A DNA stretch of 16,567 nt from the NCBI GenBank assembly GCA_021031555.1, contig GCA_021031555.1_4954.2; one strand, 5' to 3'. How positions within the stretch are numbered: the first letter of the stretch is position 1; each line of letters opens with the position of its first letter. The position numbers and the translations under genes are program-made. The notes under the pieces were generated by a model. The model was not told where the DNA came from. It was given only the letters and a program-made list of their open reading frames with translations, and did not search any database. Origin of the DNA: a phage. This document shows, piece by piece, positions 56-10,485 of the stretch.

Positions 56-175
56 TAGAGCTAAAATAAAAGTCTGGGAGATACCTATTGTAATCTATGT
101 TTTTATGCAAGTCTTTGAAATGATTGTGATTATGGGTTACGTATTTATGTATGTGATCGAAAATTAGTACATGTT

Positions 176-191
176 GTGCACTAACTGTAAA
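176..191. repeat. 16-bp repeat GTGYAYTARCTGTAMA, copy 2 (gtgcactaactgtaaa)
   Basis: Same motif as 40..55; about 85-100 bp upstream of the terS start candidates at 273/288. Confidence 0.6.
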
Positions 192-206
192 CTTAATACT
201 AACCTT

Positions 207-220
207 GCATTAGCTGTAAA
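207..220. repeat. Partial copy of the same repeat (gcattagctgtaaa)
   Basis: Shares the TARCTGTAAA half with copies 1 and 2 but lacks the GTG prefix. Confidence 0.45.
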
Positions 221-287
221 ACAGGGCGTGTGGACAACCAGTGGGTATCTGTGGGAAACTAATTTAAAATTTATGGGAGACAAATTT

Positions 288-923
288 ATGAAAATTTCAG
301 ACCGGGCTAAAAGGGCTGCTCTGGAGTTGTCGCCGGAACAGCTCAAATTCGCCAACCTGTGGTTAGATCGTGTCAATAACGGTTACAGCAATACGCGATG
401 CGTTTTAGAGGCTTATCCGGGTCACACGTCTGATGCAGCGGCTGCAACGACCGCACACCGCCTCCTGTCGAATACAAAGGTGTTGAACTATCTGGACGCG
501 ATGGGGAGTCATGCGCTTGAGTCTGTCGGGGAATCGTTAACGAGTCGTGTCGAGTGGTGGAAGCGCGCGGCAAGCACGGCTGAAGAGTTACTGGAACCGT
601 ATTGCCAGCGTGTCATCGTTCCTGGTGAAGACGACACGGAAGCGAAACACCTGTGGGTGAACAGTACCGACGATATCCCAAGCCATCTGCAACAGTACGT
701 AGTTTGCTACAAACGTTACATGCTGGGCGGATACATTCTGGTGACGCGTGAACTGTTCGACCCGAAAACTCGTGCAAAAGCGTCTGAACAACTGGATAAG
801 ATCACCGGGAACAGTATCGACCGTGTGGAACTGTCTGGTGTGGTTGGTAACGTGGTTCAGAGTGTTCCTGAAGGTGCAACTATCGACGACATCGCGCAAC
901 TGTATCAGAAGGCACTTAAATAG
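288..923 (+). CDS. terS: Terminase small subunit (Terminase_2-like N-terminal HTH)
   Basis: ORF 171..923 trimmed to the ATG at 288, which has GGGAGA 7 nt upstream; the 171..272 extension overlaps the repeat region. N-terminus LSPEQLKFANLWL..NGYSNTRCVLEAYPG..AAATTAHRLLSNTKVLNYLDAM fits the small-terminase DNA-binding pattern (LTPKQ..F...YL..N...AA..AGYS....A...SRLL.N..V). Upstream of terL. Confidence 0.7.
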   Translation: MKISDRAKRAALELSPEQLKFANLWLDRVNNGYSNTRCVLEAYPGHTSDAAAATTAHRLLSNTKVLNYLDAMGSHALESVGESLTSRVEWWKRAASTAEELLEPYCQRVIVPGEDDTEAKHLWVNSTDDIPSHLQQYVVCYKRYMLGGYILVTRELFDPKTRAKASEQLDKITGNSIDRVELSGVVGNVVQSVPEGATIDDIAQLYQKALK

Positions 924-1847: not shown

Positions 1848-2101
1848 TTGTTTCTAGCCTCCATCATTGCATCAGCCAGGATATAAGCACGGGTTGCGTA
1901 TAGTTCTTCATCCGTTTCATCGGGAAATTGTCCACTTAACATTCCCTGTAAAGCAGCAATTGCAAACTGGTCACGAACGGTTAGCGTTTTCTGGTTGATT
2001 TCTTCCAGGGTTTCCGCTGTCTGGAAATGTGACAGGGAATTTTGACCCTCAATTGATTTATAACCTGTATTGTGGTTACGTTCGGCATCGCTACGTGTCA
2101 T
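1844..2101 (-). CDS. Hypothetical protein (85 aa)
   Basis: ORF track; start overlaps the rdgC stop. Confidence 0.6.
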
Positions 2102-3012
2102 CGTTTCGCTTCCCCACCCAAAGCAGTGATAAGTTGTTTGATCAGCGATGCAAGTTCACCTGTCATTAGTACAAAATCAGCGTCGAATCGTGCCAGACTG
2201 TCTTCAAGGTCAATATCGTCGTTCTGGTCGAGCAACTCATCGCAGAATTTCACACGGTTTAACGTCATGCCGTCAGTTAGCGTAAACGTTACCCGCTGCT
2301 GCCAGTCCAGAGCCAGTTTTGTAACGACTTTTCCGGCTTCGATGTGCGTTGCGATTTCATCACTGGTTAAATCCTGTTTTTTAACGCGTGCAACACCGCC
2401 ATCAGTCAGGATCGCTTTCAGTTCAGCAGAATCACCCATTGTGAAACCTGCTGGCGCGTTTCCTGAACGTACCCACTCCGTTGTTGTCAGTTCAACAGGG
2501 TTTTCAGTTGTCAGTGGGACTACAGGCAGACTACCCAGGGATTTACGCAACAGTGCTAACGCATCTTCAGCTCGTTTAGCACTGGACGCATCAACCACGA
2601 CCAACCCGTTAGTGATATCAATCCACAACTGTGTACGACTGTTTTTAACGAATGCGCGTGGTAACAGGCTGTGCAATACTTCATCTTTCAGGCTGTCTTT
2701 CTCTGTTTTCTTCAGTTTACGCGCCTGTTCCGCTTCCAGTTTGGCGATTCGCGCGTTCAGATGCTGTTTAATGACCGGACCAGGAATAATCTTTTCCTGT
2801 TTCTGGATGGTCAGCAGATATTGCCCGTTAGCCTGGTGAACCAGCGTATGATGTTGTTCAGTTGCCGGAATCCATCCAGTACGCGCCATATCCTGTGAAC
2901 CACATGGGGTAAACCGGAAAGGTAGCAACTGTTGTTCGATGGTTGCCAGTTGTGCCATCAGCGACATAGGATTACTGATGCGGTAGATAATTGCATTTTT
3001 GAAGAAGTTCAT
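2098..3012 (-). CDS. rdgC: Recombination-associated protein RdgC family
   Basis: 304 aa, the length of bacterial RdgC; N-terminal [26 protein letters not shown] and the internal [30 protein letters not shown] block match RdgC as I recall it. AGGTG RBS. Confidence 0.85.
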
Positions 3013-3036
3013 GTTTACACCTGTTTAAAGTTGTGA

Positions 3037-3071
3037 TTCAGATAGTCAACCAAAACGATTGACTATCTGAA
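3037..3071. promoter_or_regulatory. Perfect 13-bp inverted repeat TTCAGATAGTCAA-N9-TTGACTATCTGAA
   Basis: Seen directly in the sequence between ORF 3088..3510 and the rdgC start; no U-tract on either side, so operator or RNA-processing hairpin rather than a classic terminator. Confidence 0.45.
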
Positions 3072-3087
3072 AAGTAAACCAATCTGG

Positions 3088-3510
3088 TTAGGCATCACGT
3101 TCAACCGTAATCCCATCAAAGTTCAGTTTTTCACCGATTTTCATTTCTGAAATTTTATCAAATTGATCATCTGTCCAATCTGTCATGTGATATACACCAA
3201 CTAACGACAAACCTTTGTCCTCTGCTGAAATATAACCAGCACTTTCATCACGGGTCGTATAGCGTTTCATAATCTTTTCCTGTTCGTTAAAAGTAGCGAC
3301 AATACGCGGTAAATGGTTTTGAATTTCCAGTGACCAAACACCACGCACTTTGGTTAATTTCCACGTTACACCGTCTTTTTCGTCGTCCGGGATAAATACA
3401 CCGTCGTCTTTATAGATAGCGTTGTACGTCTCACCTACCGTGAACCACGGGCAAGCTTTATGCACCGTTAAACAGGTGAATCCAGTCGGTAAAGTTTTCA
3501 CGATAGCCAA
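3088..3510 (-). CDS. Hypothetical protein (140 aa)
   Basis: ORF track. Confidence 0.6.
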   Translation of the reverse strand: MAIVKTLPTGFTCLTVHKACPWFTVGETYNAIYKDDGVFIPDDEKDGVTWKLTKVRGVWSLEIQNHLPRIVATFNEQEKIMKRYTTRDESAGYISAEDKGLSLVGVYHMTDWTDDQFDKISEMKIGEKLNFDGITVERDA

Positions 3511-3647
3511 TACCTCACTAATTCATTTGTCAGGTCTATAAGAGTCATCAAAAAGCTAATGACAAATATTAAACCGCCGATACCAACTACCCACGGTAAA
3601 ACAGCGATAACCCATGATGGTAGTTTTGAAATCAGCCAGAAAATCAT
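3498..3647 (-). CDS. Small hydrophobic membrane protein (49 aa, MIFWLISKLPSWVIAVLPWVVGIGGLIFVISF...)
   Basis: Hand translation; RBS AAGGAACAGGAA before the ATG; below the ORF-track size cutoff. Confidence 0.35.
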   Translation of the reverse strand: MIFWLISKLPSWVIAVLPWVVGIGGLIFVISFLMTLIDLTNELVRYWLS

Positions 3648-3784
3648 TTCCTGTTCCTTCTTTTCTTCGCCTCGCGTTTGGCTTTTGCAATACCTGTTTT
3701 ACGATGTGGTTGTTTACGGTCAGTAATAAGTCGTTGTGGTGGAATACCCCACAACGTGTTAGTGGAACCTAATAATTTAATCAT
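3644..3784 (-). CDS. Small basic protein (46 aa, lysine/arginine-rich C-terminus)
   Basis: Hand translation; stop overlaps the next ATG; no clear RBS. Confidence 0.25.
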   Translation of the reverse strand: MIKLLGSTNTLWGIPPQRLITDRKQPHRKTGIAKAKREAKKRRNRK

Positions 3785-3795
3785 GTAATCTAAGA

Positions 3796-4062
3796 TCATA
3801 CGTTCACCACTTTTAAATCAGGTGTCAGGCTACGATGGTCGTGATGACCGTTCATAGTAAATGAGAAAGTGTAATCGCACTGCTCACCGTCGAATGTGAA
3901 GGGGATTTGAAACCCTGTATCGTCAGTGATGCGAACTTTAACCGGGTATTCAGTTTGCGGATCGACCGCTACAACAGTGCCGAATGGTTTAGATTTGCGA
4001 CGTGCGAGAATTTCTAACAGTCGTGGACTGGTGATTTCTACGTGTTGACCAGTTTTAAACAT
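3796..4062 (-). CDS. Hypothetical protein (88 aa)
   Basis: ORF 3796..4089 trimmed to the ATG at 4062 with GGAG 8 nt upstream; the ATG at 4089 falls inside the promoter. Confidence 0.55.
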   Translation of the reverse strand: MFKTGQHVEITSPRLLEILARRKSKPFGTVVAVDPQTEYPVKVRITDDTGFQIPFTFDGEQCDYTFSFTMNGHHDHRSLTPDLKVVNV

Positions 4063-4094
4063 GGTGATAACTCCAGTTGTTTTACACAAACTGA

Positions 4095-4136
4095 AGTCTA
4101 TCTAATAATGTGTAAACCGTCAAGAATTATTTTAAA
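4095..4136 (-). promoter_or_regulatory. Conserved promoter element copy 2 (-35 TTGACG, -10 TAGACT)
   Basis: Minus-strand TTTAAAATAATTCTTGACG-GTTTACACATTATTAGA-TAGACT; overlaps the 3' end of ORF 4098..4313. Confidence 0.55.
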
Positions 4137-4313
4137 TTGTCCGTCACTGTCTGCAGCGTAACAAATACCGTGACTGTAGATTGTCGCAGTTCGTGTAATG
4201 CGTTGATAGTCTGAGCATTGGTTACGAATACGCAGGTCGTAACCGGACTGTATGATAAGCCAGGTTGCAATGATGGCGAGTAATTTTAAAACGTATCTGA
4301 ACATGTTCCACAC
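4098..4313 (-). CDS. Small signal-anchored or secreted protein (71 aa)
   Basis: ORF track; hydrophobic N-terminus MFRYVLKLLAIIATWLII then a polar region with two Cys; AGGAG RBS. Confidence 0.5.
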   Translation of the reverse strand: MWNMFRYVLKLLAIIATWLIIQSGYDLRIRNQCSDYQRITRTATIYSHGICYAADSDGQFKIILDGLHIIR

Positions 4314-4430
4314 TCCTGTTTGATAGTTTCAGGGTAGTGTGGAACTGGCGAAGATGGTATAGGATTTACGATAATTTAACAGGGGTTTCGACTGGTAAGT
4401 TGTTTATGACTGACTTTTCACCTTTCCCAA

Positions 4431-4526
4431 CTAAGTTCGCATTGCCAGTGCAACAATCAACACCATTAACATTACTCCAACTACCACACCGACTACAAAT
4501 GCACTAACTAAACCAATCAAACTCAT
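4431..4526 (-). CDS. Small hydrophobic peptide (31 aa, MSLIGLVSAFVVGVVVGVMLMVLIVALAMRT)
   Basis: Hand translation; GGAGA RBS 7 nt upstream; ATG overlaps the stop of the upstream ORF. Confidence 0.35.
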   Translation of the reverse strand: MSLIGLVSAFVVGVVVGVMLMVLIVALAMRT

Positions 4527-4810
4527 TTCAATGTCTCCACATGTAACTGCCAGTTTTTAGTAGCATCCTTGCGACGTTTAATCTTTCTACCTAATCCGTG
4601 AGTACCCATTTTTAAAATCGCATGGTTATTTTGTACATCAACCACTTTGTAGAAATAACCACGAGGTGACAACCAAGTCTAACCTACTTCAAAATGTTTA
4701 TCCACTTTTTCAACCCTCCACCCATATTTGGCACGATTCATAGCAGTCCGTTCATCATTCGTTGTGAACAGTACACGCCCGGATTTATGACAAATGTTCC
4801 AAGTCGTCAT
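4523..4810 (-). pseudogene. ORF interrupted by a single in-frame amber codon (TAG at 4679..4681): 43 codons, TAG, 51 codons
   Basis: Hand translation MTTWNICHKSGRVLFTTNDERTAMNRAKYGWRVEKVDKHFEVG*TWLSPRGYFYKVVDVQNNHAILKMGTHGLGRKIKRRKDATKNWQLHVETLK. This falls in an approximately 550-bp stretch (4314..4861) with no ORF of 60 aa or more in the track. Confidence 0.3.
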
Positions 4811-4861
4811 TTTGCTAATACACCATTAATGAAAATTAGCATGTAGAATAAACATTACGGG

Positions 4862-5020
4862 TCATAATTCATAAACCTTAAAACTACTGCCTGAATAGCG
4901 ATGTTTACCACACAACTTACAACGGTGTTCCTGAGTGGCATAGTTACGTTCATCCCCGTGGATAGTACGATATAAATACCATTCGTGTTTGCAGAATAAT
5001 CGTTTGAAAAATATCTTCAT
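4862..5020 (-). CDS. Small Cys/His-rich protein (52 aa, FCKHEW...HRCKLCGKH)
   Basis: Hand translation; ATG overlaps the stop of gene 5020..5214 (TGATG). Confidence 0.35.
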   Translation of the reverse strand: MKIFFKRLFCKHEWYLYRTIHGDERNYATQEHRCKLCGKHRYSGSSFKVYEL

Positions 5021-5214
5021 CAATAACCCCTCCTCGACTGGTAATCAATTTTCTTCAGTGATTGTTGCACAATCTGCCAGGACGATAACATGAATAATTG
5101 CGCATACTGCCCCAGCGCTAAATTTCGTGGTTTATCCTGATAGGCGTAAATGGTCGCAACGTCATCAGCTTCCAGACGGATCCGCCACGGTGTCAGAGTT
5201 GGTTTATCACCCAT
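5020..5214 (-). CDS. Hypothetical protein (64 aa)
   Basis: ORF 5020..5250 begins at a TTG with no RBS; the internal ATG at 5214 has GGAGA about 10 nt upstream. Confidence 0.5.
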   Translation of the reverse strand: MGDKPTLTPWRIRLEADDVATIYAYQDKPRNLALGQYAQLFMLSSWQIVQQSLKKIDYQSRRGY

Positions 5215-5428
5215 GTTCGATGCTCTCCAGTAGTTCACGAATGTTTTCAATTACACATTGTTTTGTCTGAGTAGTGACACACACCCCATCAGTGCGACCA
5301 AACGTATTCAGGACTGTTTGAAGCATATAAGTCGTAAGTTCAGTATTATAAAGTTTTACGAATATTGAAAGGTCACCACCAATTTCAACAGTGTCTACAT
5401 TATCTTCAAAATATGAAAATGTAGTGTC

Positions 5429-5539
5429 TTAAAAATGAACACAGTAAACGGCATTTTGCCCGTATTCAGGTTGTGCATTACGTTCAAGACGAACGGCAAG
5501 AACTTCTTTAAATAATTCGTTGTGGTCTTTAATTTTCAT
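5429..5539 (-). CDS. Small protein (36 aa, MKIKDHNELFKEVLAVRLERNAQPEYGQNAVYCVHF)
   Basis: Hand translation; AGGAG RBS; first ORF downstream of promoter copy 3. Confidence 0.4.
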   Translation of the reverse strand: MKIKDHNELFKEVLAVRLERNAQPEYGQNAVYCVHF

Positions 5540-5571
5540 ACCCGTGTTACTCCTGTTCAATTGATGATCAG

Positions 5572-5613
5572 AGTCTGACACCACCTCTGTAATCTGTCAA
5601 GAATTATTTTAAA
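5572..5613 (-). promoter_or_regulatory. Conserved promoter element copy 3 (-35 TTGACA, -10 CAGACT; weakest -10 of the set)
   Basis: Minus-strand TTTAAAATAATTCTTGACA-GATTACAGAGGTGGTGT-CAGACT, in the divergent region between the minus cassette and terL. Confidence 0.5.
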
Positions 5614-5676
5614 TCTCTGTCACCACCAATCACCCATGGTAAACTGTACAGAACAGTTACAAACGGACCGATAATC

Positions 5677-7440
5677 ATGAATAAGTTTACTGGAAATATT
5701 CATAATTACCCGCGCTGGCGTGATGCCTACGCAAATGACGAACGTATCTGGCGAAAAGGTCAGCCACGACCAGATTACAAACAGTGTTACATTGACCGTA
5801 TTAACCTGTTAAATCGTATGCGCACGGATCGGGCAATTGTCCCGGTACTGAAAAAGTATTACGAAACAAACCCGGTAGCGTTTATCCTCGACTGGGCGTT
5901 TACTTATGACCCACGTAACGTTGGTACTGAATATCCGCCAAACATGCCTTTCTGCCTTTTCGAACGTCAAATCGACATGGTTCAGTTTGTTTACGAAGCG
6001 CTTGAAGACAAAGAAAAAGGGCTTTGGGAAAAATCGCGAGACTATGGTGCGACCTGGGTAGCCTGTGGTTTGTCCGTGTGGGCGTGGCTGTATCGTCCTG
6101 GTTCGTCAGTCGGCTGGGGTTCACGTAAAGAACAGCTTGTCGATAAACTGGGCGACCCTGATAGTATTTTTGAAAAGATTCGCCAGATTATCCGTGCATT
6201 ACCGCCGGAATTACGCCCTGTTGGTCTGCGTGAAAAAGACCATCTGGTTTATATGAAATGTATCAACCCAGAAAACGGTGCAACAATTACTGGTGAAGCT
6301 GGCGATAACATCGGTCGTGGTGGTCGTAAATCTGTTTACTTTCTCGATGAGGCAGCACACGTAGATCGTCCTGAACTGATTGAAGCGTCGTTGTCAGCTA
6401 ACACCAACGTCCGTATTGACATCAGTTCAGTCAATGGCGTTGGTAACGTTTTTTATCGTAACCGTAAAGCGGGTCTGGAATGGGAACCGGGTAAGAAATT
6501 ACCTCGTGGTAAATTGCGTGTTATGGTTCTGGACTGGCGTGATCACCCGGCTAAAGATGACGAATGGTATAAACGTGAAAAACAATCGTTCGCCGAAAAA
6601 GGTTTACAGCATATTTTCGCACAGGAAGTTGACCGCGATTATGCCGCTGCTGTTCAGGGTGTACTGATTAAAGCTGAATGGGTACGCGCTGCTTTTGACG
6701 CGTTCCGTGACACAGAATGGCGCAAAGCTAATGGACTACTTACACCAACAGGTCAGCGTATCGCCGGACAGGATGCCGCAGACGGTGGTGAAGACGCAAG
6801 CGCACTGGTAATTGCTCACGGTGTATTCCTGACACATCTGCAACTTGACCACAGGGGCGCTGAACTGGCTGCACCAGGGATGTTGACGATGGCTAATATG
6901 CTGGGTGTTGATGAATACTGGTACGAAGTTAACGGTGTTGGTACAGGCGTTAAAGTAGCGGCAAATGACCGGAAAGATACTCTACGCTTCCGTGTGCGTC
7001 CGTGGTTACCGAACGGAAAAGTGGTGGATCCTGGTGGTGATATTATCGGCGGTACGAAACCTGGCGATAAAGACCGTAAATCAAACAAAGATTATTTCTC
7101 AAATTATAAAGCACAGGCATCGTGGGCGTTACGTTTGCGTTGCCAGCGAATTTATAAATGGTATGTGGAAGGTCAACCACAGGATCCAGACGAAATTATT
7201 CTGATTGACCCGTCACTGGAAAACGCACAACGGTTAGAAGCTGAGTTAAGTCAGCCAACGTATACCAGTAACGGTGCCGGGAAGATTGCGATCGACAAGA
7301 AACCAAACGGTAGTAAGTCACCAAACTTTTTCGATGCTGCGGTTATTGCACTATCACCAAAACGTACCGAATTCGTTGAAGAACCATTTACTGGTGGTGT
7401 GAATCCTGTTGGTACTCCTGAATACGGTGACATTTTTTAA
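5677..7440 (+). CDS. terL: Terminase large subunit
   Basis: 587 aa; deviant Walker-A-like KSRDYGAT, Walker-B-like VYFLDEAAH, then an acidic C-terminal domain consistent with the terminase nuclease domain; sits between terS and the putative portal. Confidence 0.8.
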   Translation: MNKFTGNIHNYPRWRDAYANDERIWRKGQPRPDYKQCYIDRINLLNRMRTDRAIVPVLKKYYETNPVAFILDWAFTYDPRNVGTEYPPNMPFCLFERQIDMVQFVYEALEDKEKGLWEKSRDYGATWVACGLSVWAWLYRPGSSVGWGSRKEQLVDKLGDPDSIFEKIRQIIRALPPELRPVGLREKDHLVYMKCINPENGATITGEAGDNIGRGGRKSVYFLDEAAHVDRPELIEASLSANTNVRIDISSVNGVGNVFYRNRKAGLEWEPGKKLPRGKLRVMVLDWRDHPAKDDEWYKREKQSFAEKGLQHIFAQEVDRDYAAAVQGVLIKAEWVRAAFDAFRDTEWRKANGLLTPTGQRIAGQDAADGGEDASALVIAHGVFLTHLQLDHRGAELAAPGMLTMANMLGVDEYWYEVNGVGTGVKVAANDRKDTLRFRVRPWLPNGKVVDPGGDIIGGTKPGDKDRKSNKDYFSNYKAQASWALRLRCQRIYKWYVEGQPQDPDEIILIDPSLENAQRLEAELSQPTYTSNGAGKIAIDKKPNGSKSPNFFDAAVIALSPKRTEFVEEPFTGGVNPVGTPEYGDIF

Positions 7441-7447
7441 ACAGTGT

Positions 7448-7472
7448 GGCGGGATTATTCCCGCCCGTTTTC
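7448..7472 (+). terminator. Intrinsic terminator candidate
   Basis: GGCGGGA-ttat-TCCCGCC followed by CGTTTTC, 8 nt after the terL stop. Confidence 0.5.
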
Positions 7473-7540
7473 AGAGGGTTTACCAGTCCGTTCATAGTAC
7501 CATTACAGTTTTCCGCGTTCACGTTTTACTGATCGACTTC

Positions 7541-7566
7541 GCCCCGGAACTGTCCGGGGCTTTTTT
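7541..7566 (+). terminator. Intrinsic terminator
   Basis: GCCCCGGA-actg-TCCGGGGC followed by TTTTTT; preceded by an A-tract, so weak activity on the minus strand is possible. Confidence 0.7.
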
Positions 7567-7841
7567 CAACGTCTGAAAGATGAAAGAACAGCGAGGCTAA
7601 CAGAACCTAAACCGAATATGACAGCGTATGTTAGCTGATGTTGAAGTTTCACAAAACCGTAATAATCGCTTTGTAATTCTACGATGTCAAAAGCAATTGA
7701 AAAACTGGTTACCAGCAACATGATTGAAAGAACACGAATCAGAGCAACTGCTAATCCTATCACCGCTTGTTCTTTTTTCTCAGTTGTAATAACGACAACA
7801 ATCATTAACAGAAGTGAAAAAGCAATGTACATGTATTCCAT
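7566..7841 (-). CDS. Small membrane protein with three predicted TM segments (91 aa)
   Basis: ORF track; three hydrophobic stretches and a short basic C-terminus (SFRR). Confidence 0.55.
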   Translation of the reverse strand: MEYMYIAFSLLLMIVVVITTEKKEQAVIGLAVALIRVLSIMLLVTSFSIAFDIVELQSDYYGFVKLQHQLTYAVIFGLGSVSLAVLSSFRR

Positions 7842-7846
7842 AATGA

Positions 7847-7939
7847 TTAGTCCCGATAAACTTCAGCACACCCATAAACTTTATCAGGGTTGTAAACCTG
7901 TTCAGCTTGTAACGCACCCTGACACTGTTCGAACGTCAT
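7847..7939 (-). CDS. Possible small ORF (30 aa)
   Basis: Hand translation; no convincing RBS; fills the gap between two cassette genes. Confidence 0.2.
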   Translation of the reverse strand: MTFEQCQGALQAEQVYNPDKVYGCAEVYRD

Positions 7940-8001
7940 AATACGTTCTGTCACAGGTTCAATAGCCACACTATGCAGAACAAGCACCAGTACGTAACCA
8001 A

Positions 8002-8331
8002 TTAACATTTTCTTAGAGTCTCCCGCCAGTTCAGCCCGTGTAGGTTTACTTTACATATATGAATAAACGGAATATCAGGATCACACCATGAGCTACCGCT
8101 AATGTATGGGTCGTGTTCCCACGCGTAAACTTCACCATCAGCATCAGTAGTAATAACTGTATAGTTTTCTGGTATAGTTACTGACAATCCAAAATACATT
8201 ACAGTTTTATAAAGACCCATTTCAACCAGTGTCATTTTACAATCTGGTGCTTCTTCGTGGATATCCCACGATTTACCACAGTGTGAACACTGATATTCAT
8301 CGTTACAGCGAATAGCGTTTACATGATTCAT
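8002..8331 (-). CDS. Cys-rich hypothetical protein (109 aa; CNDEYQCSHCGK...APDC)
   Basis: ORF track; GAGGAAGA RBS. Confidence 0.6.
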   Translation of the reverse strand: MNHVNAIRCNDEYQCSHCGKSWDIHEEAPDCKMTLVEMGLYKTVMYFGLSVTIPENYTVITTDADGEVYAWEHDPYISGSSWCDPDIPFIHICKVNLHGLNWRETLRKC

Positions 8332-8343
8332 GATTATTCTTCC

Positions 8344-8679
8344 TCAGTTACGGATGATACCGTTGACGGAATGTGAATTAGTACATGACTTTGTAGTAAT
8401 ATTTCCATTAACTGTTTCGATATTACCACTATCCCCAGTAACAGAAACATTACCATTAACCGTTTTGATATTTCCACTGTTTCCTGAAATGTTAACGTCA
8501 CCGTTAGTCGTTTCAATGGATTCAACATCACCATAAACACTGATCGATATGTTACCAACCAGATTACCATCAACCTGTATGCCATCAACAATTACTTTAT
8601 CACCGTTAATTTCAAATTTACGTCCTGTAAATTCCCTACCGTCAATTATTACTTTACCGTTTCTCATATTTATTTTCAT
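8344..8679 (-). CDS. Beta-solenoid-like repeat protein (111 aa)
   Basis: ORF track; tandem degenerate repeats GNIKTVNGNVSVTGDSGNIETVNGNITT rich in G, N, V, I, T; start overlaps the upstream stop (ATGA). Confidence 0.6.
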   Translation of the reverse strand: MKINMRNGKVIIDGREFTGRKFEINGDKVIVDGIQVDGNLVGNISISVYGDVESIETTNGDVNISGNSGNIKTVNGNVSVTGDSGNIETVNGNITTKSCTNSHSVNGIIRN

Positions 8680-8987
8680 TTAACTGTCTCCGGTACAAAC
8701 CACATTGACGCGAGATACGCACACCCGGCAATTTTATGTTCGTGTTTAGGTTCGAAACTACCCAGAATTACATTGATGTGTGCATGGGCCTGTTTAAAGT
8801 TCACACCGTTAACAGCAACTGCGTATTCTTTCAGACCATTGAAAAACCATTTGCTAACCCACTGATTCCACGGGTTAGAATTTTCAAAAAATTCTTTCGG
8901 AATACTACCCATCGCCGGGAGAAATTCAGCAATGTTTTTAGGTCCAAAAGCAATATCCAGTTGTGTAATATTTTCATTCGGTTTCAT
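8676..8987 (-). CDS. Hypothetical protein (103 aa)
   Basis: ORF 8676..9011 trimmed to the ATG at 8987 with AAGGGTGA RBS; the ATG at 9011 falls at the predicted transcription start. Confidence 0.6.
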   Translation of the reverse strand: MKPNENITQLDIAFGPKNIAEFLPAMGSIPKEFFENSNPWNQWVSKWFFNGLKEYAVAVNGVNFKQAHAHINVILGSFEPKHEHKIAGCAYLASMWFVPETVK

Positions 8988-9018
8988 AGTTATCACCCTT
9001 TGTTCATTCAATGACTAA

Positions 9019-9059
9019 AGCATAATCGCACGTTTGCAATTCGTCAAGAATTATTTTAA
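9019..9059 (-). promoter_or_regulatory. Conserved promoter element copy 4 (-35 TTGACG, -10 TATGCT)
   Basis: Minus-strand TTAAAATAATTCTTGACG-AATTGCAAACGTGCGAT-TATGCT. Confidence 0.6.
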
Positions 9060-9081
9060 CACCGTGCAAAAAAACCATCAC

Positions 9082-9090
9082 TGATATAAC
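9082..9090 (+). promoter_or_regulatory. Candidate extended -10 (TGATATAAC) upstream of the portal gene
   Basis: TGnTATAAC about 40 nt upstream of the ATG at 9130; a near-identical TGATATAAT precedes the head-morphogenesis gene. Confidence 0.3.
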
Positions 9091-9129
9091 ATACGTTAAG
9101 AACCGTAAACCGTATGGAGCCTGTAGAAC

Positions 9130-10485
9130 ATGGCTGATCAACAATTCGAACAACTAGCCGTTGCCGGGTACAGTCGAACAGGCAACCAGGTAAACGACGA
9201 TTTTCTTCCTAAACTAAACGGTAAACAAGGCCGTCGTATTCTTCGTCAGATGGCTGAGAACGACGAAACTATTGGCGGTGTGTTATTCGCCATGAGTAGC
9301 GTTTATCGTTCTGTACAGTGGATTTTTGACCCGTCTGACAAAGATGATCCAGAAGCTATTCGTTATTCAGAATGGTTGCAGGACGCTATTGAAAATAAAA
9401 TGGGTGATCCGCGTGGTGCACTCCCGGACGATACCTGGTCCGCGTTCGTTCAGACATGGACAGACGTTGATGTATTCGGCTGGGGTTGGTATGACATCTG
9501 GGTCAAAGACCTTGATGATGGTACGGTGGGTATTGCCCGTCTGGTTCCTGTAGCACCTGAAACGCTTGCTGGTTGGGATATTGAAGAACCGACAGGTTAT
9601 GTTCGTGGTATTTATCAACGTTCACCTAACCAGGGTACAACGACGTTAATCACGCGTGATCGTTCGCTTCATTTGATTTCAAGTCCGAATAAAGGTAACC
9701 CGGAAGGTTTATCACTGCTGCGCACAGCTTATCGTCCGTGGTACTACAAAAAAGTGAATATGGAAATCGAATCCATACTTGCCGAACGTGGTACAGGGTT
9801 CCCGGTAATTACTGTTAACGCAGATATTAAAAAAGCGGCTAATGATCCTAATGTTCCTGAACAACAGCGTCAGGCAGCACAGGCGATGATTGATAACTAT
9901 GAAAACATCGTCGCTAATATCAAACGCAATGAACAATCAGGACTGGTGATTTATTCTAAACCGTATATCACGGGTTATGATAACGAAACAGGTGTTACCA
10001 CATATGGTGGTGAACAACAGGTGAAACTGGAATTTGTTACACCTAACCAGACCAGTTCTGTGGATATTGACCGGACGATTAAACGCCTGGATACCAGTAT
10101 TGCTCGCGCATTACTGGCAGATTTCATGTTTTTCGGAACGGGTGGTAATACCGGGAATAACGCTAACCTGGGTAGTCGTACTGAACTGTGGATCCGCGCA
10201 ATGCAATCACGTATTGATAGCATTGTAGAATGTGTTAATCGTCAGTTGATACCGCAGTTATGGTCGTTAAACGCATTTCCTGATGAATACCGCCCGTCGA
10301 TTCGCGCCGGGTCAATCAGTAAAGATAGTATTGAAACATTGACTACGGCACTTGCTCGTTTAGCACAAGCTGGCGCACCTGTATTCCCAGATCCAGACCT
10401 TCAGGAATACGTATATAAAGAGGCGGGTCTACCTATTACGGGAATTGATAAAGCAGGGGACGGATTACCGTCTATTGACGACTGA
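9130..10485 (+). CDS. Putative portal protein
   Basis: 451 aa ORF with GGAG RBS, placed between terL and the head-morphogenesis gene; assignment rests on size and position only. Confidence 0.5.
   Translation: MADQQFEQLAVAGYSRTGNQVNDDFLPKLNGKQGRRILRQMAENDETIGGVLFAMSSVYRSVQWIFDPSDKDDPEAIRYSEWLQDAIENKMGDPRGALPDDTWSAFVQTWTDVDVFGWGWYDIWVKDLDDGTVGIARLVPVAPETLAGWDIEEPTGYVRGIYQRSPNQGTTTLITRDRSLHLISSPNKGNPEGLSLLRTAYRPWYYKKVNMEIESILAERGTGFPVITVNADIKKAANDPNVPEQQRQAAQAMIDNYENIVANIKRNEQSGLVIYSKPYITGYDNETGVTTYGGEQQVKLEFVTPNQTSSVDIDRTIKRLDTSIARALLADFMFFGTGGNTGNNANLGSRTELWIRAMQSRIDSIVECVNRQLIPQLWSLNAFPDEYRPSIRAGSISKDSIETLTTALARLAQAGAPVFPDPDLQEYVYKEAGLPITGIDKAGDGLPSIDD

What the first reader, a model, noticed from the sequence alone, without database searches (positions are those of the whole stretch)
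4523..4810. ORF interrupted by a single in-frame amber codon
On the minus strand an ATG-initiated frame runs 43 codons, hits TAG at 4679..4681, then continues in the same frame for 51 more codons to a TGA that overlaps the next gene's ATG. The flanking peptides read as one continuous sequence. This could be a nonsense mutation (for example an amber-mutant stock or a recently inactivated gene), stop-codon readthrough, or two short genes that happen to be in frame.
Basis: seen in the sequence. Interest (0 to 1): 0.5.

Follow-up and report, generated by a model that had tools for sequence, protein, structure and literature searches.

The report
Recent amber mutation in phage accessory gene
A small gene of unknown function in this 9NA-like coliphage carries a single-base change that turns a conserved glutamate/glutamine codon into a stop codon, which is an ordinary, recent knockout of part of a dispensable gene and not a recoding signal.

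Summary
On the minus strand, ATG 4810 opens 43 codons, then TAG (4681..4679), then 51 in-frame codons, then a TGA that overlaps the next ATG.

The window is the left arm of a 9NA-like (Nonanavirus/Sashavirus) E. coli siphophage. Every relative that has this gene reads through the position as one 95-97-aa protein. The codon is GAG in 9NA and in contigs L009, L011 and L018, and CAG in L010. The closest intact allele (P0001) is 99% identical.

The TAG is not at a gene boundary. It lies inside a conserved small beta-barrel domain, between the near-invariant residues F40, G43 and W46. In 41 family members the column is Glu 30, Gln 8, Asp 2, Ala 1.

Downstream of the TAG, the window differs from the intact allele by one synonymous change in 51 codons, so the mutation is recent. 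An independent assembly of run ERR5751948 carries the same TAG.

TAG is an ordinary terminator elsewhere in the window. No tRNA gene is found in the window or in the closest complete genome.

Best reading: a spontaneous nonsense allele that leaves the 36-aa N-terminal module and removes the C-terminal barrel. The closest E. coli relatives lack that barrel altogether. This is ordinary and of low interest.

The parts
4679..4810 (-). Upstream piece: ATG plus 42 codons, ending at the premature TAG. It encodes the complete N-terminal module (residues 1-36) plus 7 residues of the C-terminal module.
   Evidence: The N-module is fused to other C-terminal modules in AVIO78A, PJ16, BDX09P1 and Skate. 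The AlphaFold2 model gives it a beta-beta-alpha-beta fold over residues 3-36.
4679..4681 (-). Premature amber codon TAG (codon 44). The derived base is the minus-strand T at 4681. Relatives have G (GAG, Glu) or C (CAG, Gln) there.
   Evidence: DNA alignments. The family column is E 30, Q 8, D 2, A 1.
4523..4678 (-). Downstream in-frame piece: 51 codons plus TGA. It encodes the rest of the small beta-barrel C-module and is now cut off from the start codon.
   Evidence: phrog_24287 matches residues 35-92 of the read-through product. There is one synonymous and no non-synonymous difference from the intact allele L009 in codons 45-95.
4526..4702 (-). Extent of the C-terminal module (residues 37-95). 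It is a Tudor/KOW/SH3-like five-stranded barrel, and the TAG falls just before its first strand.
4523..4672 (-). Possible re-initiation ORF. It starts at a TTG 6 nt after the TAG, encodes 49 aa, and is preceded by the SD-like sequence GAAGTAGGT (4690..4682). Its product would lack the invariant F40, G43 and W46.
   Evidence: One search lists the ORF. Pairing to the anti-SD is -5.5 kcal/mol, within the range of real genes in the window. Use of this start is an inference and is not shown.
4431..4526 (-). Downstream 31-aa hydrophobic peptide gene. Its ATG overlaps the TGA of the interrupted gene. It has its own GGAG Shine-Dalgarno sequence and ends in TAG.
   Evidence: It is called as a 31-aa gene in L009, L010 and L015, and its TAG stop is conserved.

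Best explanation
The window carries a recent, spontaneous nonsense allele of a two-module accessory gene. The gene is the homolog of 9NA gp6 (PHROG 30984) and lies in the leftward early-region operon of a 9NA-like coliphage.

One base substitution changed a conserved Glu or Gln codon into TAG: GAG>TAG by a G>T transversion, or CAG>TAG by a C>T transition. In a non-suppressing host, RF1 terminates translation at codon 44. The product is then a 43-aa peptide holding the intact N-terminal module (beta-beta-alpha-beta, residues 1-36) plus a 7-residue tail. The C-terminal Tudor/KOW-like barrel is lost.

At best the barrel is made as a defective 49-aa fragment by re-initiation at the TTG 6 nt downstream. 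That fragment would lack the first strand and three invariant residues.

The barrel module is naturally absent or replaced in the closest E. coli relatives, so its loss is tolerated.

Shown here: the stop, its derived state, its position inside a conserved domain, its recency, and its presence in an independent assembly. Inferred: the consequences for the protein, and the dispensability of the barrel in this particular phage.
For: 1. Uninterrupted homologs. 9NA gp6 is 95 aa with Glu at the position. Sergei and Solent match over residues 1-92 at the same identity as 9NA. P0001 (99% identical), P0003 (93%) and P0004 (83%) have Glu, and P0002 (94%) has Gln.

2. The codon in DNA. It is GAG in 9NA, L009, L011 and L018, CAG in L010, and TAG only in the window.

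3. The TAG lies inside a domain. phrog_24287, the stand-alone barrel family, aligns to residues 35-92. Stand-alone homologs such as HK639_34, SenTO17_35 and Eta_24 carry F-x-V-G-E-[IV]-W-x-S-P-R-G spanning the site. In 42 aligned sequences the column is E30/Q8/D2/A1, flanked by F40 (41/41), G43 (39/41) and W46 (41/41).

4. The gene is under long-term purifying selection. Against 9NA, pN/pS is 0.19 overall and 0.10 downstream of the stop.

5. The mutation is recent. Codons 45-95 differ from the intact L009 allele by one synonymous and no non-synonymous change.

6. The TAG is in a second assembly. Logan contig ERR5751948_354 is 100% identical to window 1931..9940, TAG included.

7. The barrel is dispensable. 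AVIO78A and PJ16 (about 95% identical genomes) fuse the N-module directly to a different module, and BDX09P1 fuses it to a third one. A pig-gut lineage carries two frameshifts in the same gene.
Against: Read-level support could not be examined. The Logan contig probably comes from the same sequencing run as the window, so it is an independent assembly but not an independent sample.

The host's suppressor status is unknown. Only 16.5 kb of the roughly 57-kb genome was available to scan for tRNA genes, although the closest complete genome, PJ16, has none.

The amber allele was found in no other sample, so it rests on a single source.
Confidence: 0.85

Rival explanations
1. Sequencing or consensus error: the real genome has GAG or CAG, and the TAG is an artefact.
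For: The amber allele is seen only in this source. No gene with either half as its exact product is on record. No other contig matching the surrounding sequence carries T at that base.
Against: An independently built Logan assembly of run ERR5751948 is 100% identical over 8 kb, including the TAG. The change is a clean substitution in non-repetitive sequence, not a homopolymer indel.
Confidence: 0.05
2. Functional readthrough or suppression: the full-length protein is still made, because the propagation host carries an amber suppressor such as supE/glnV44, or because of programmed readthrough.
For: Gln occurs naturally at this position in P0002/L010 and in 8 of 41 family members, so a supE-suppressed product would be a natural variant. 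The stop is followed by A (TAG-A). From general knowledge, not tested here, that is a comparatively leaky and suppressible context in E. coli.
Against: No relative conserves a stop here, which argues against a programmed signal. TAG terminates other genes in the window at positions conserved in relatives, for example the 31-aa peptide gene and ORF 171..923. No tRNA gene is found in the window or in the complete genome of the closest relative, PJ16. Large genes carry no in-frame TAG.
Confidence: 0.05
3. Two genuine short genes that happen to be in frame: a 43-aa N-module protein and a separately initiated ~49-aa barrel protein.
For: Both modules exist independently elsewhere. The barrel is a 58-66-aa stand-alone protein in HK639, SenTO17, Eta and Mulvp2, and the N-module is joined to other partners. 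A TTG with SD-like pairing of -5.5 kcal/mol lies 6 nt after the stop.
Against: The stop is 7 residues inside the barrel module, not at the module junction (V36|D37). Stand-alone barrels always include the F-x-x-G-E-x-W segment, which a TTG-initiated product would lack. The SD-like sequence is equally present in intact alleles, so it is not an adaptation. The nearest alleles are single 95-aa ORFs.
Confidence: 0.03
4. A deliberately isolated laboratory amber mutant (conditional-lethal stock).
For: An amber codon derived by a single base change is what such a stock would show.
Against: The affected module is absent from the closest relatives and is frameshifted in another lineage. It is therefore not essential and would not be selected as a conditional lethal. 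The literature searches turned up no paper on amber-mutant stocks of this phage type.
Confidence: 0.02

Closest known systems
Salmonella phage 9NA gp6 (AIB07009.1) and its Sergei/Solent homologs; PHROG 30984
   Same: Same position in the leftward operon between the large terminase gene and rdgC. Same two-module architecture and same length (95 aa). Identity is 78% at the protein level and 81% at the DNA level.
   Different: Those genes are uninterrupted, with GAG at codon 44 (window numbering). The window has TAG there.
Metagenomic alleles P0001 (L009), P0002 (L010), P0003 and L018
   Same: 93-99% identical proteins in the same gene neighbourhood, including the overlapping 31-aa peptide gene.
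   Different: All are intact, with Glu or Gln at the site.
HK639 gp34-like stand-alone proteins (phrog_24287; also SenTO17_35 and Serratia phage Eta_0024, plus copies in enterobacterial genome records that may be prophage-borne)
   Same: Homologous to the C-terminal module (40-62% identity), with the same conserved F-x-V-G-E-x-W-x-S-P-R-G...G-x-G-R-K motif.
   Different: They are 58-66-aa proteins with no N-module, and their own start codon lies upstream of the motif that the window's TAG interrupts.
Tudor/KOW/SH3-like small beta-barrels (Spt5 KOW, UvrD/PcrA C-terminal Tudor, CarD RNAP-interacting domain)
   Different: There is no detectable sequence relationship: no Pfam hit and no PDB sequence hit. 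The fold is very common, so no function can be transferred.
TAG-recoded phages (genetic code 15) and programmed stop-codon readthrough
   Same: Both show an in-frame TAG inside a coding sequence.
   Different: Here there is a single in-frame TAG in one gene, it is not conserved in any relative, TAG is used as a terminator elsewhere, and there is no suppressor tRNA.

Membership tests
9NA gp6-like two-module protein (PHROG 30984) | Full-length sequence match covering both modules | tested here: met
   The read-through translation matches phrog_30984 over residues 2-92 (E=3.8e-53) and 9NA gp6 over residues 1-92 (E=3e-46).
9NA gp6-like two-module protein (PHROG 30984) | A single uninterrupted ORF of about 95 aa | tested here: not met
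   TAG at codon 44. The locus is a nonsense allele (pseudogene-like) of the family, not an intact member.
9NA gp6-like two-module protein (PHROG 30984) | Conserved position in the leftward operon between the large terminase gene and rdgC | tested here: met
   The gene order matches 9NA, L009 and L010.
HK639 gp34-like small barrel (phrog_24287) | Conserved N-terminal motif F-x-x-G-[EQ]-x-W-x-S-P-R-G | tested here: not met
   The motif is present in the DNA (F40, G43, W46, S48, P49, R50, G51), but the [EQ] codon is TAG, so no single translation product contains the motif.
Programmed stop-codon readthrough | The stop codon is conserved at the same position in homologs | tested here: not met
   Homologs have GAG or CAG. 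In the 41 sequences with a residue at the position, the column is E/Q/D/A and never a stop.
TAG-reassigned genetic code (code 15-type phages) | In-frame TAGs in many genes, with TAG not used as a terminator | tested here: not met
   The terminase (587 aa), portal (451 aa) and RdgC (304 aa) ORFs are intact. The 31-aa peptide gene and ORF 171..923 end in TAG, and the former stop is conserved in L009, L010 and L011.
TAG-reassigned genetic code (code 15-type phages) | A phage-encoded suppressor tRNA | tested here: not met
   ARAGORN finds no tRNA gene in the window or in the complete genome of the closest relative, PJ16. The remainder of this phage's own genome was not available.
Laboratory amber (conditional-lethal) mutant | The mutation lies in an essential gene | tested here: not met
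   The C-module is absent from AVIO78A, PJ16 and BDX09P1 and is frameshifted in L011-L013.
Tudor/KOW/SH3-like small beta-barrel fold | A five-stranded barrel that superposes on known members | tested here: met
Tudor/KOW/SH3-like small beta-barrel fold | Shared function, such as RNA polymerase or nucleic-acid binding | not testable with these tools
   There are no sequence-level relatives of known function.

The most novel reading that the evidence does not exclude
The amber allele is adaptive rather than neutral decay. One version is that loss of the Tudor-like C-module lets the phage escape a host defence that senses this protein. Another is that the allele separates a still-useful N-module from the barrel, with low-level readthrough or re-initiation tuning the ratio of the two products. 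The same gene is independently remodelled in relatives by module swaps, and by two frameshifts in a widespread pig-gut lineage. That pattern would fit a locus under diversifying, host-driven selection.
Probability: 0.08. Interest if true: 0.35.

Novelty: new member of a known kind. Interest (0 to 1): 0.12.

Why it matters
The main value is for annotation. The two halves should be recorded as one disrupted gene (a pseudogene or nonsense allele of the 9NA gp6 family), not as two hypothetical proteins and not as evidence of recoding.

It also flags this early-region locus as a hotspot of module exchange and inactivation. One conserved 36-aa N-terminal module is paired with at least four different C-terminal partners. 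That makes the locus a reasonable candidate for a host-interaction or anti-defence gene, but the amber codon itself is an everyday mutation.

Tried and rejected
1. Searches for the amber allele elsewhere. Exact look-ups of the 43-aa and 49-aa products found nothing. A degenerate DNA pattern across the site found nothing in IMG/VR and one intact GAG allele in metagenomes.

2. New promoter. I checked whether the G>T change creates a sigma-70 promoter (TAGACT as a -10 element). The scan reports no site on the minus strand at that position, and promoter-like hits overall are at background level: 7 found against 5.3 +/- 2.2 expected. Rejected.

3. Function by sequence. Pfam gave no hit for the protein or for the stand-alone barrel. 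The PHROG families are 'unknown function'. The PDB sequence profile search found nothing. Foldseek against the PDB gave no match with E<=0.001.

4. Literature. A search for the run accession found nothing. A search on 9NA/Nonanavirus/Sashavirus returned no paper whose title or abstract concerns this gene.

5. 'MarR family regulator' annotations listed beside N-module hits in Klebsiella phages. In the one record inspected, VLCpiS13e, the MarR gene is a neighbouring gene that overlaps the match by only 10 nt, and the N-module ORF itself is unannotated.

6. Pyrrolysine or selenocysteine-type recoding. I considered and dismissed this without a dedicated test, from general knowledge: the phage infects enterobacteria, which have no such machinery, and no tRNA gene was found.

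Full report
OBSERVATION

The minus strand of window 4523..4810 translates as MTTWNICHKSGRVLFTTNDERTAMNRAKYGWRVEKVDKHFEVG*TWLSPRGYFYKVVDVQNNHAILKMGTHGLGRKIKRRKDATKNWQLHVETLK*. That is 43 sense codons, TAG at 4681..4679, 51 sense codons, and TGA at 4525..4523. The TGA overlaps the ATG of a 31-aa hydrophobic ORF (4526..4431) as ATGA.

Two neighbouring ORFs share a frame one time in three, so the layout alone says little. The question is settled by comparison with relatives.

CONTEXT

The window is the left end of a 9NA-like siphophage genome (Nonanavirus/Sashavirus). Over its 16.5 kb it is about 95% identical, in 60-73% of its length, to Escherichia phages PJ16, BDX09P1, AVIO78A, 536P12 and Bas82. 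It is 82-88% identical to Salmonella phages 9NA, Sergei, Solent and Sasha.

The interrupted ORF lies in a leftward operon of small genes, between the rightward large-terminase gene (5677..7440) and rdgC (3012..2098).

ONE GENE IN RELATIVES

- 9NA gp6 is a single 95-aa protein that aligns across the stop...WRVEKVNKEFQINEIWLSPRGYFYKV....
- Sergei and Solent match the read-through product over residues 1-92 at the same identity as 9NA.
- The large protein collection holds four uninterrupted proteins of 95-97 aa: P0001 at 99%, P0002 at 94%, P0003 at 93% and P0004 at 83% identity.
- At the DNA level the codon is GAG in 9NA, L009 (P0001), L011 and L018, CAG in L010 (P0002), and TAG only in the window.

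The TAG is therefore derived by one substitution, either G>T from GAG or C>T from CAG.

THE STOP IS INSIDE A DOMAIN, NOT AT A GENE JUNCTION

The protein has two modules.

The N-module covers residues 1-36. It recurs fused to at least three other C-terminal sequences:
- a DUF5490-like module in AVIO78A_011 and PJ16_012, which in 9NA is the separate gene gp5;
- an 'SREQFEA...' module in BDX09P1 and Skate_032;
- a 'DDLKCILNEM...' module in P0013 and P0020.

The junction always follows ...VE(K/S)V|D.

The C-module covers residues 37-95. It exists as a stand-alone 58-66-aa protein (phrog_24287) in HK639, SenTO17, Serratia phage Eta and Mulvp2, and in records from Enterobacter, Serratia, Citrobacter, Cronobacter and Atlantibacter genomes.

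Those stand-alone proteins begin 7-12 residues upstream of the position that corresponds to the TAG. They carry the motif F-x-V-G-E-[IV]-W-x-S-P-R-G across it. In a 42-sequence alignment the column is Glu 30, Gln 8, Asp 2, Ala 1. It is flanked by F40 (41/41), G43 (39/41) and W46 (41/41).

This refutes the 'two genes that happen to be in frame' reading. A gene boundary would sit at V36|D37, and no functional barrel protein could start after W46.

SELECTION AND AGE

Against 9NA the gene shows purifying selection. pN/pS is 0.19 overall and 0.10 for the part downstream of the stop.

Against the nearest intact allele (L009), the 51 codons downstream of the TAG carry one synonymous change and no non-synonymous change. 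No decay has accumulated since the stop arose, so the mutation is recent.

IS IT REAL?

A Logan assembly of run ERR5751948 (contig 354) is 100% identical to window 1931..9940, including the TAG. The gene caller used there called nothing in the 336-nt gap.

This is an independent assembly, but very probably of the same sample. It excludes an assembler artefact. It does not replace a read pile-up, which I could not make.

RECODING AND READTHROUGH

TAG serves as an ordinary terminator in this genome. The 31-aa peptide gene ends in TAG at a position conserved in L009, L010 and L011, and ORF 171..923 also ends in TAG.

The long genes carry no in-frame TAG. ARAGORN finds no tRNA gene in the window or in the whole genome of the closest relative, PJ16. 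No relative conserves a stop at the site. Programmed readthrough and code reassignment are therefore not supported.

One point remains open. If the phage was propagated on a supE host, Gln would be inserted, and Gln is a natural residue here (P0002 and 8 of 41 family members). I cannot test the host genotype.

CONSEQUENCES (INFERRED)

An AlphaFold2 model of the intact allele P0001, built on a 42-sequence alignment, has mean pLDDT 87.9. It shows a beta-beta-alpha-beta N-module (strands 3-7, 13-17 and 32-36, helix 20-28). It also shows a five-stranded barrel (strands 45-47, 53-60, 63-68, 76-80 and 88-90), with mean pLDDT 91-96 per ten-residue block over residues 41-90.

Termination at codon 44 leaves the whole N-module plus seven residues and removes the whole barrel.

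A TTG 6 nt after the stop is preceded by GAAGTAGGT, which pairs with the anti-SD at -5.5 kcal/mol. That is within the range of real genes in the window, so termination-reinitiation is physically plausible. Its 49-aa product would lack strand 1 and the invariant F40, G43 and W46. The same SD-like sequence is present in intact alleles, so it is not an adaptation.

The downstream 31-aa gene has its own GGAG. It should still be translated, though coupling to the upstream gene is lost.

The barrel is absent from the closest E. coli relatives. The same gene also carries two frameshifts in a pig-gut lineage seen on 16 contigs. The loss is therefore evidently tolerable.

FUNCTION

Function remains unknown. 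There is no Pfam hit, the PHROG families are of unknown function, and there is no sequence relative in the PDB.

VERDICT

It is a recent single-base nonsense mutation in a non-essential two-module accessory gene.

It is not a recoding event, not two genes, and very unlikely to be a laboratory amber stock. It should be annotated as one disrupted gene. Interest is low.

The only mildly interesting aspect is the locus itself: a constant N-module combined with interchangeable C-modules and repeatedly disrupted. That pattern is typical of host-interaction genes.

Noticed in passing
window 4700..4810 (-); L002:1577-1972, L003:1577-1966, L004 ~1240-1640, L017:795-1172, L001:1182-1764: The 36-aa N-module (WNICHKSGRVLFTT..ERTA.NRAK.GWRVEKV) is fused to at least four unrelated C-terminal modules in different phages, always with the junction after 'VEKV|D'. 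In 9NA the DUF5490-like module is a separate downstream gene (gp5). In AVIO78A and PJ16 it is fused directly to the N-module, as if the barrel module had been deleted in frame between two short TGGAT repeats.
   Followed up: partly
L011:2900-3280 (also L012, L013); protein P0005: A pig-gut metagenome lineage, seen on 16 contigs from at least 3 samples, carries two changes in this gene. One is a 1-nt deletion (GTTGAAAAAG>GTTAAAAAG) and the other a 1-nt insertion (ACTAAAAAC>ACTAAAAAAC), both in A-runs. The barrel is called from a GTG start and is fused to the 31-aa membrane peptide. The deletion creates U-AAA-AAG, which resembles the dnaX slippery site. A -1 slip there would restore the ancestral reading (..WRVKKVDKHF..). 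Whether this is decay, homopolymer error or frameshifting was not tested.
   Followed up: no
window 4431..4526 (-): A 31-aa, almost entirely hydrophobic ORF (MSLIGLVSAFVVGVVVGVMLMVLIVALAMRT). It is conserved in L009, L010, L011 and L018, has its own GGAG SD, and is coupled by an ATGA overlap to the interrupted gene. It is absent from 9NA, AVIO78A and PJ16 at this position. It is probably a single-pass membrane peptide, and its function is unknown.
   Followed up: partly
L016:~800-960 (Klebsiella phage VLCpiS13e) and other Klebsiella-phage records listed: In VLCpiS13e the N-module homolog falls in a stretch with no annotated gene, next to a gene labelled 'MarR family regulator'. It is a short ORF of about 65 aa that the record's annotation has missed. 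Other Klebsiella-phage hits list the same neighbouring label but were not inspected.
   Followed up: partly
L008:~1000-1160 (Enterobacter phage Mulvp2): A stand-alone barrel homolog (MNVPQLCFMPGQLWISPRGFYYRV...NWQLQ) lies in an unannotated gap between Mulvp2_15 and Mulvp2_16.
   Followed up: no
window 3012..5677 compared with PJ16, AVIO78A, BDX09P1 and L009-L011: The stretch between rdgC and the large terminase gene is a mosaic. Megablast covers only 25-62% of window 4300..5100 in the closest genomes. Gene content there differs between phages that are about 95% identical elsewhere.
   Followed up: partly
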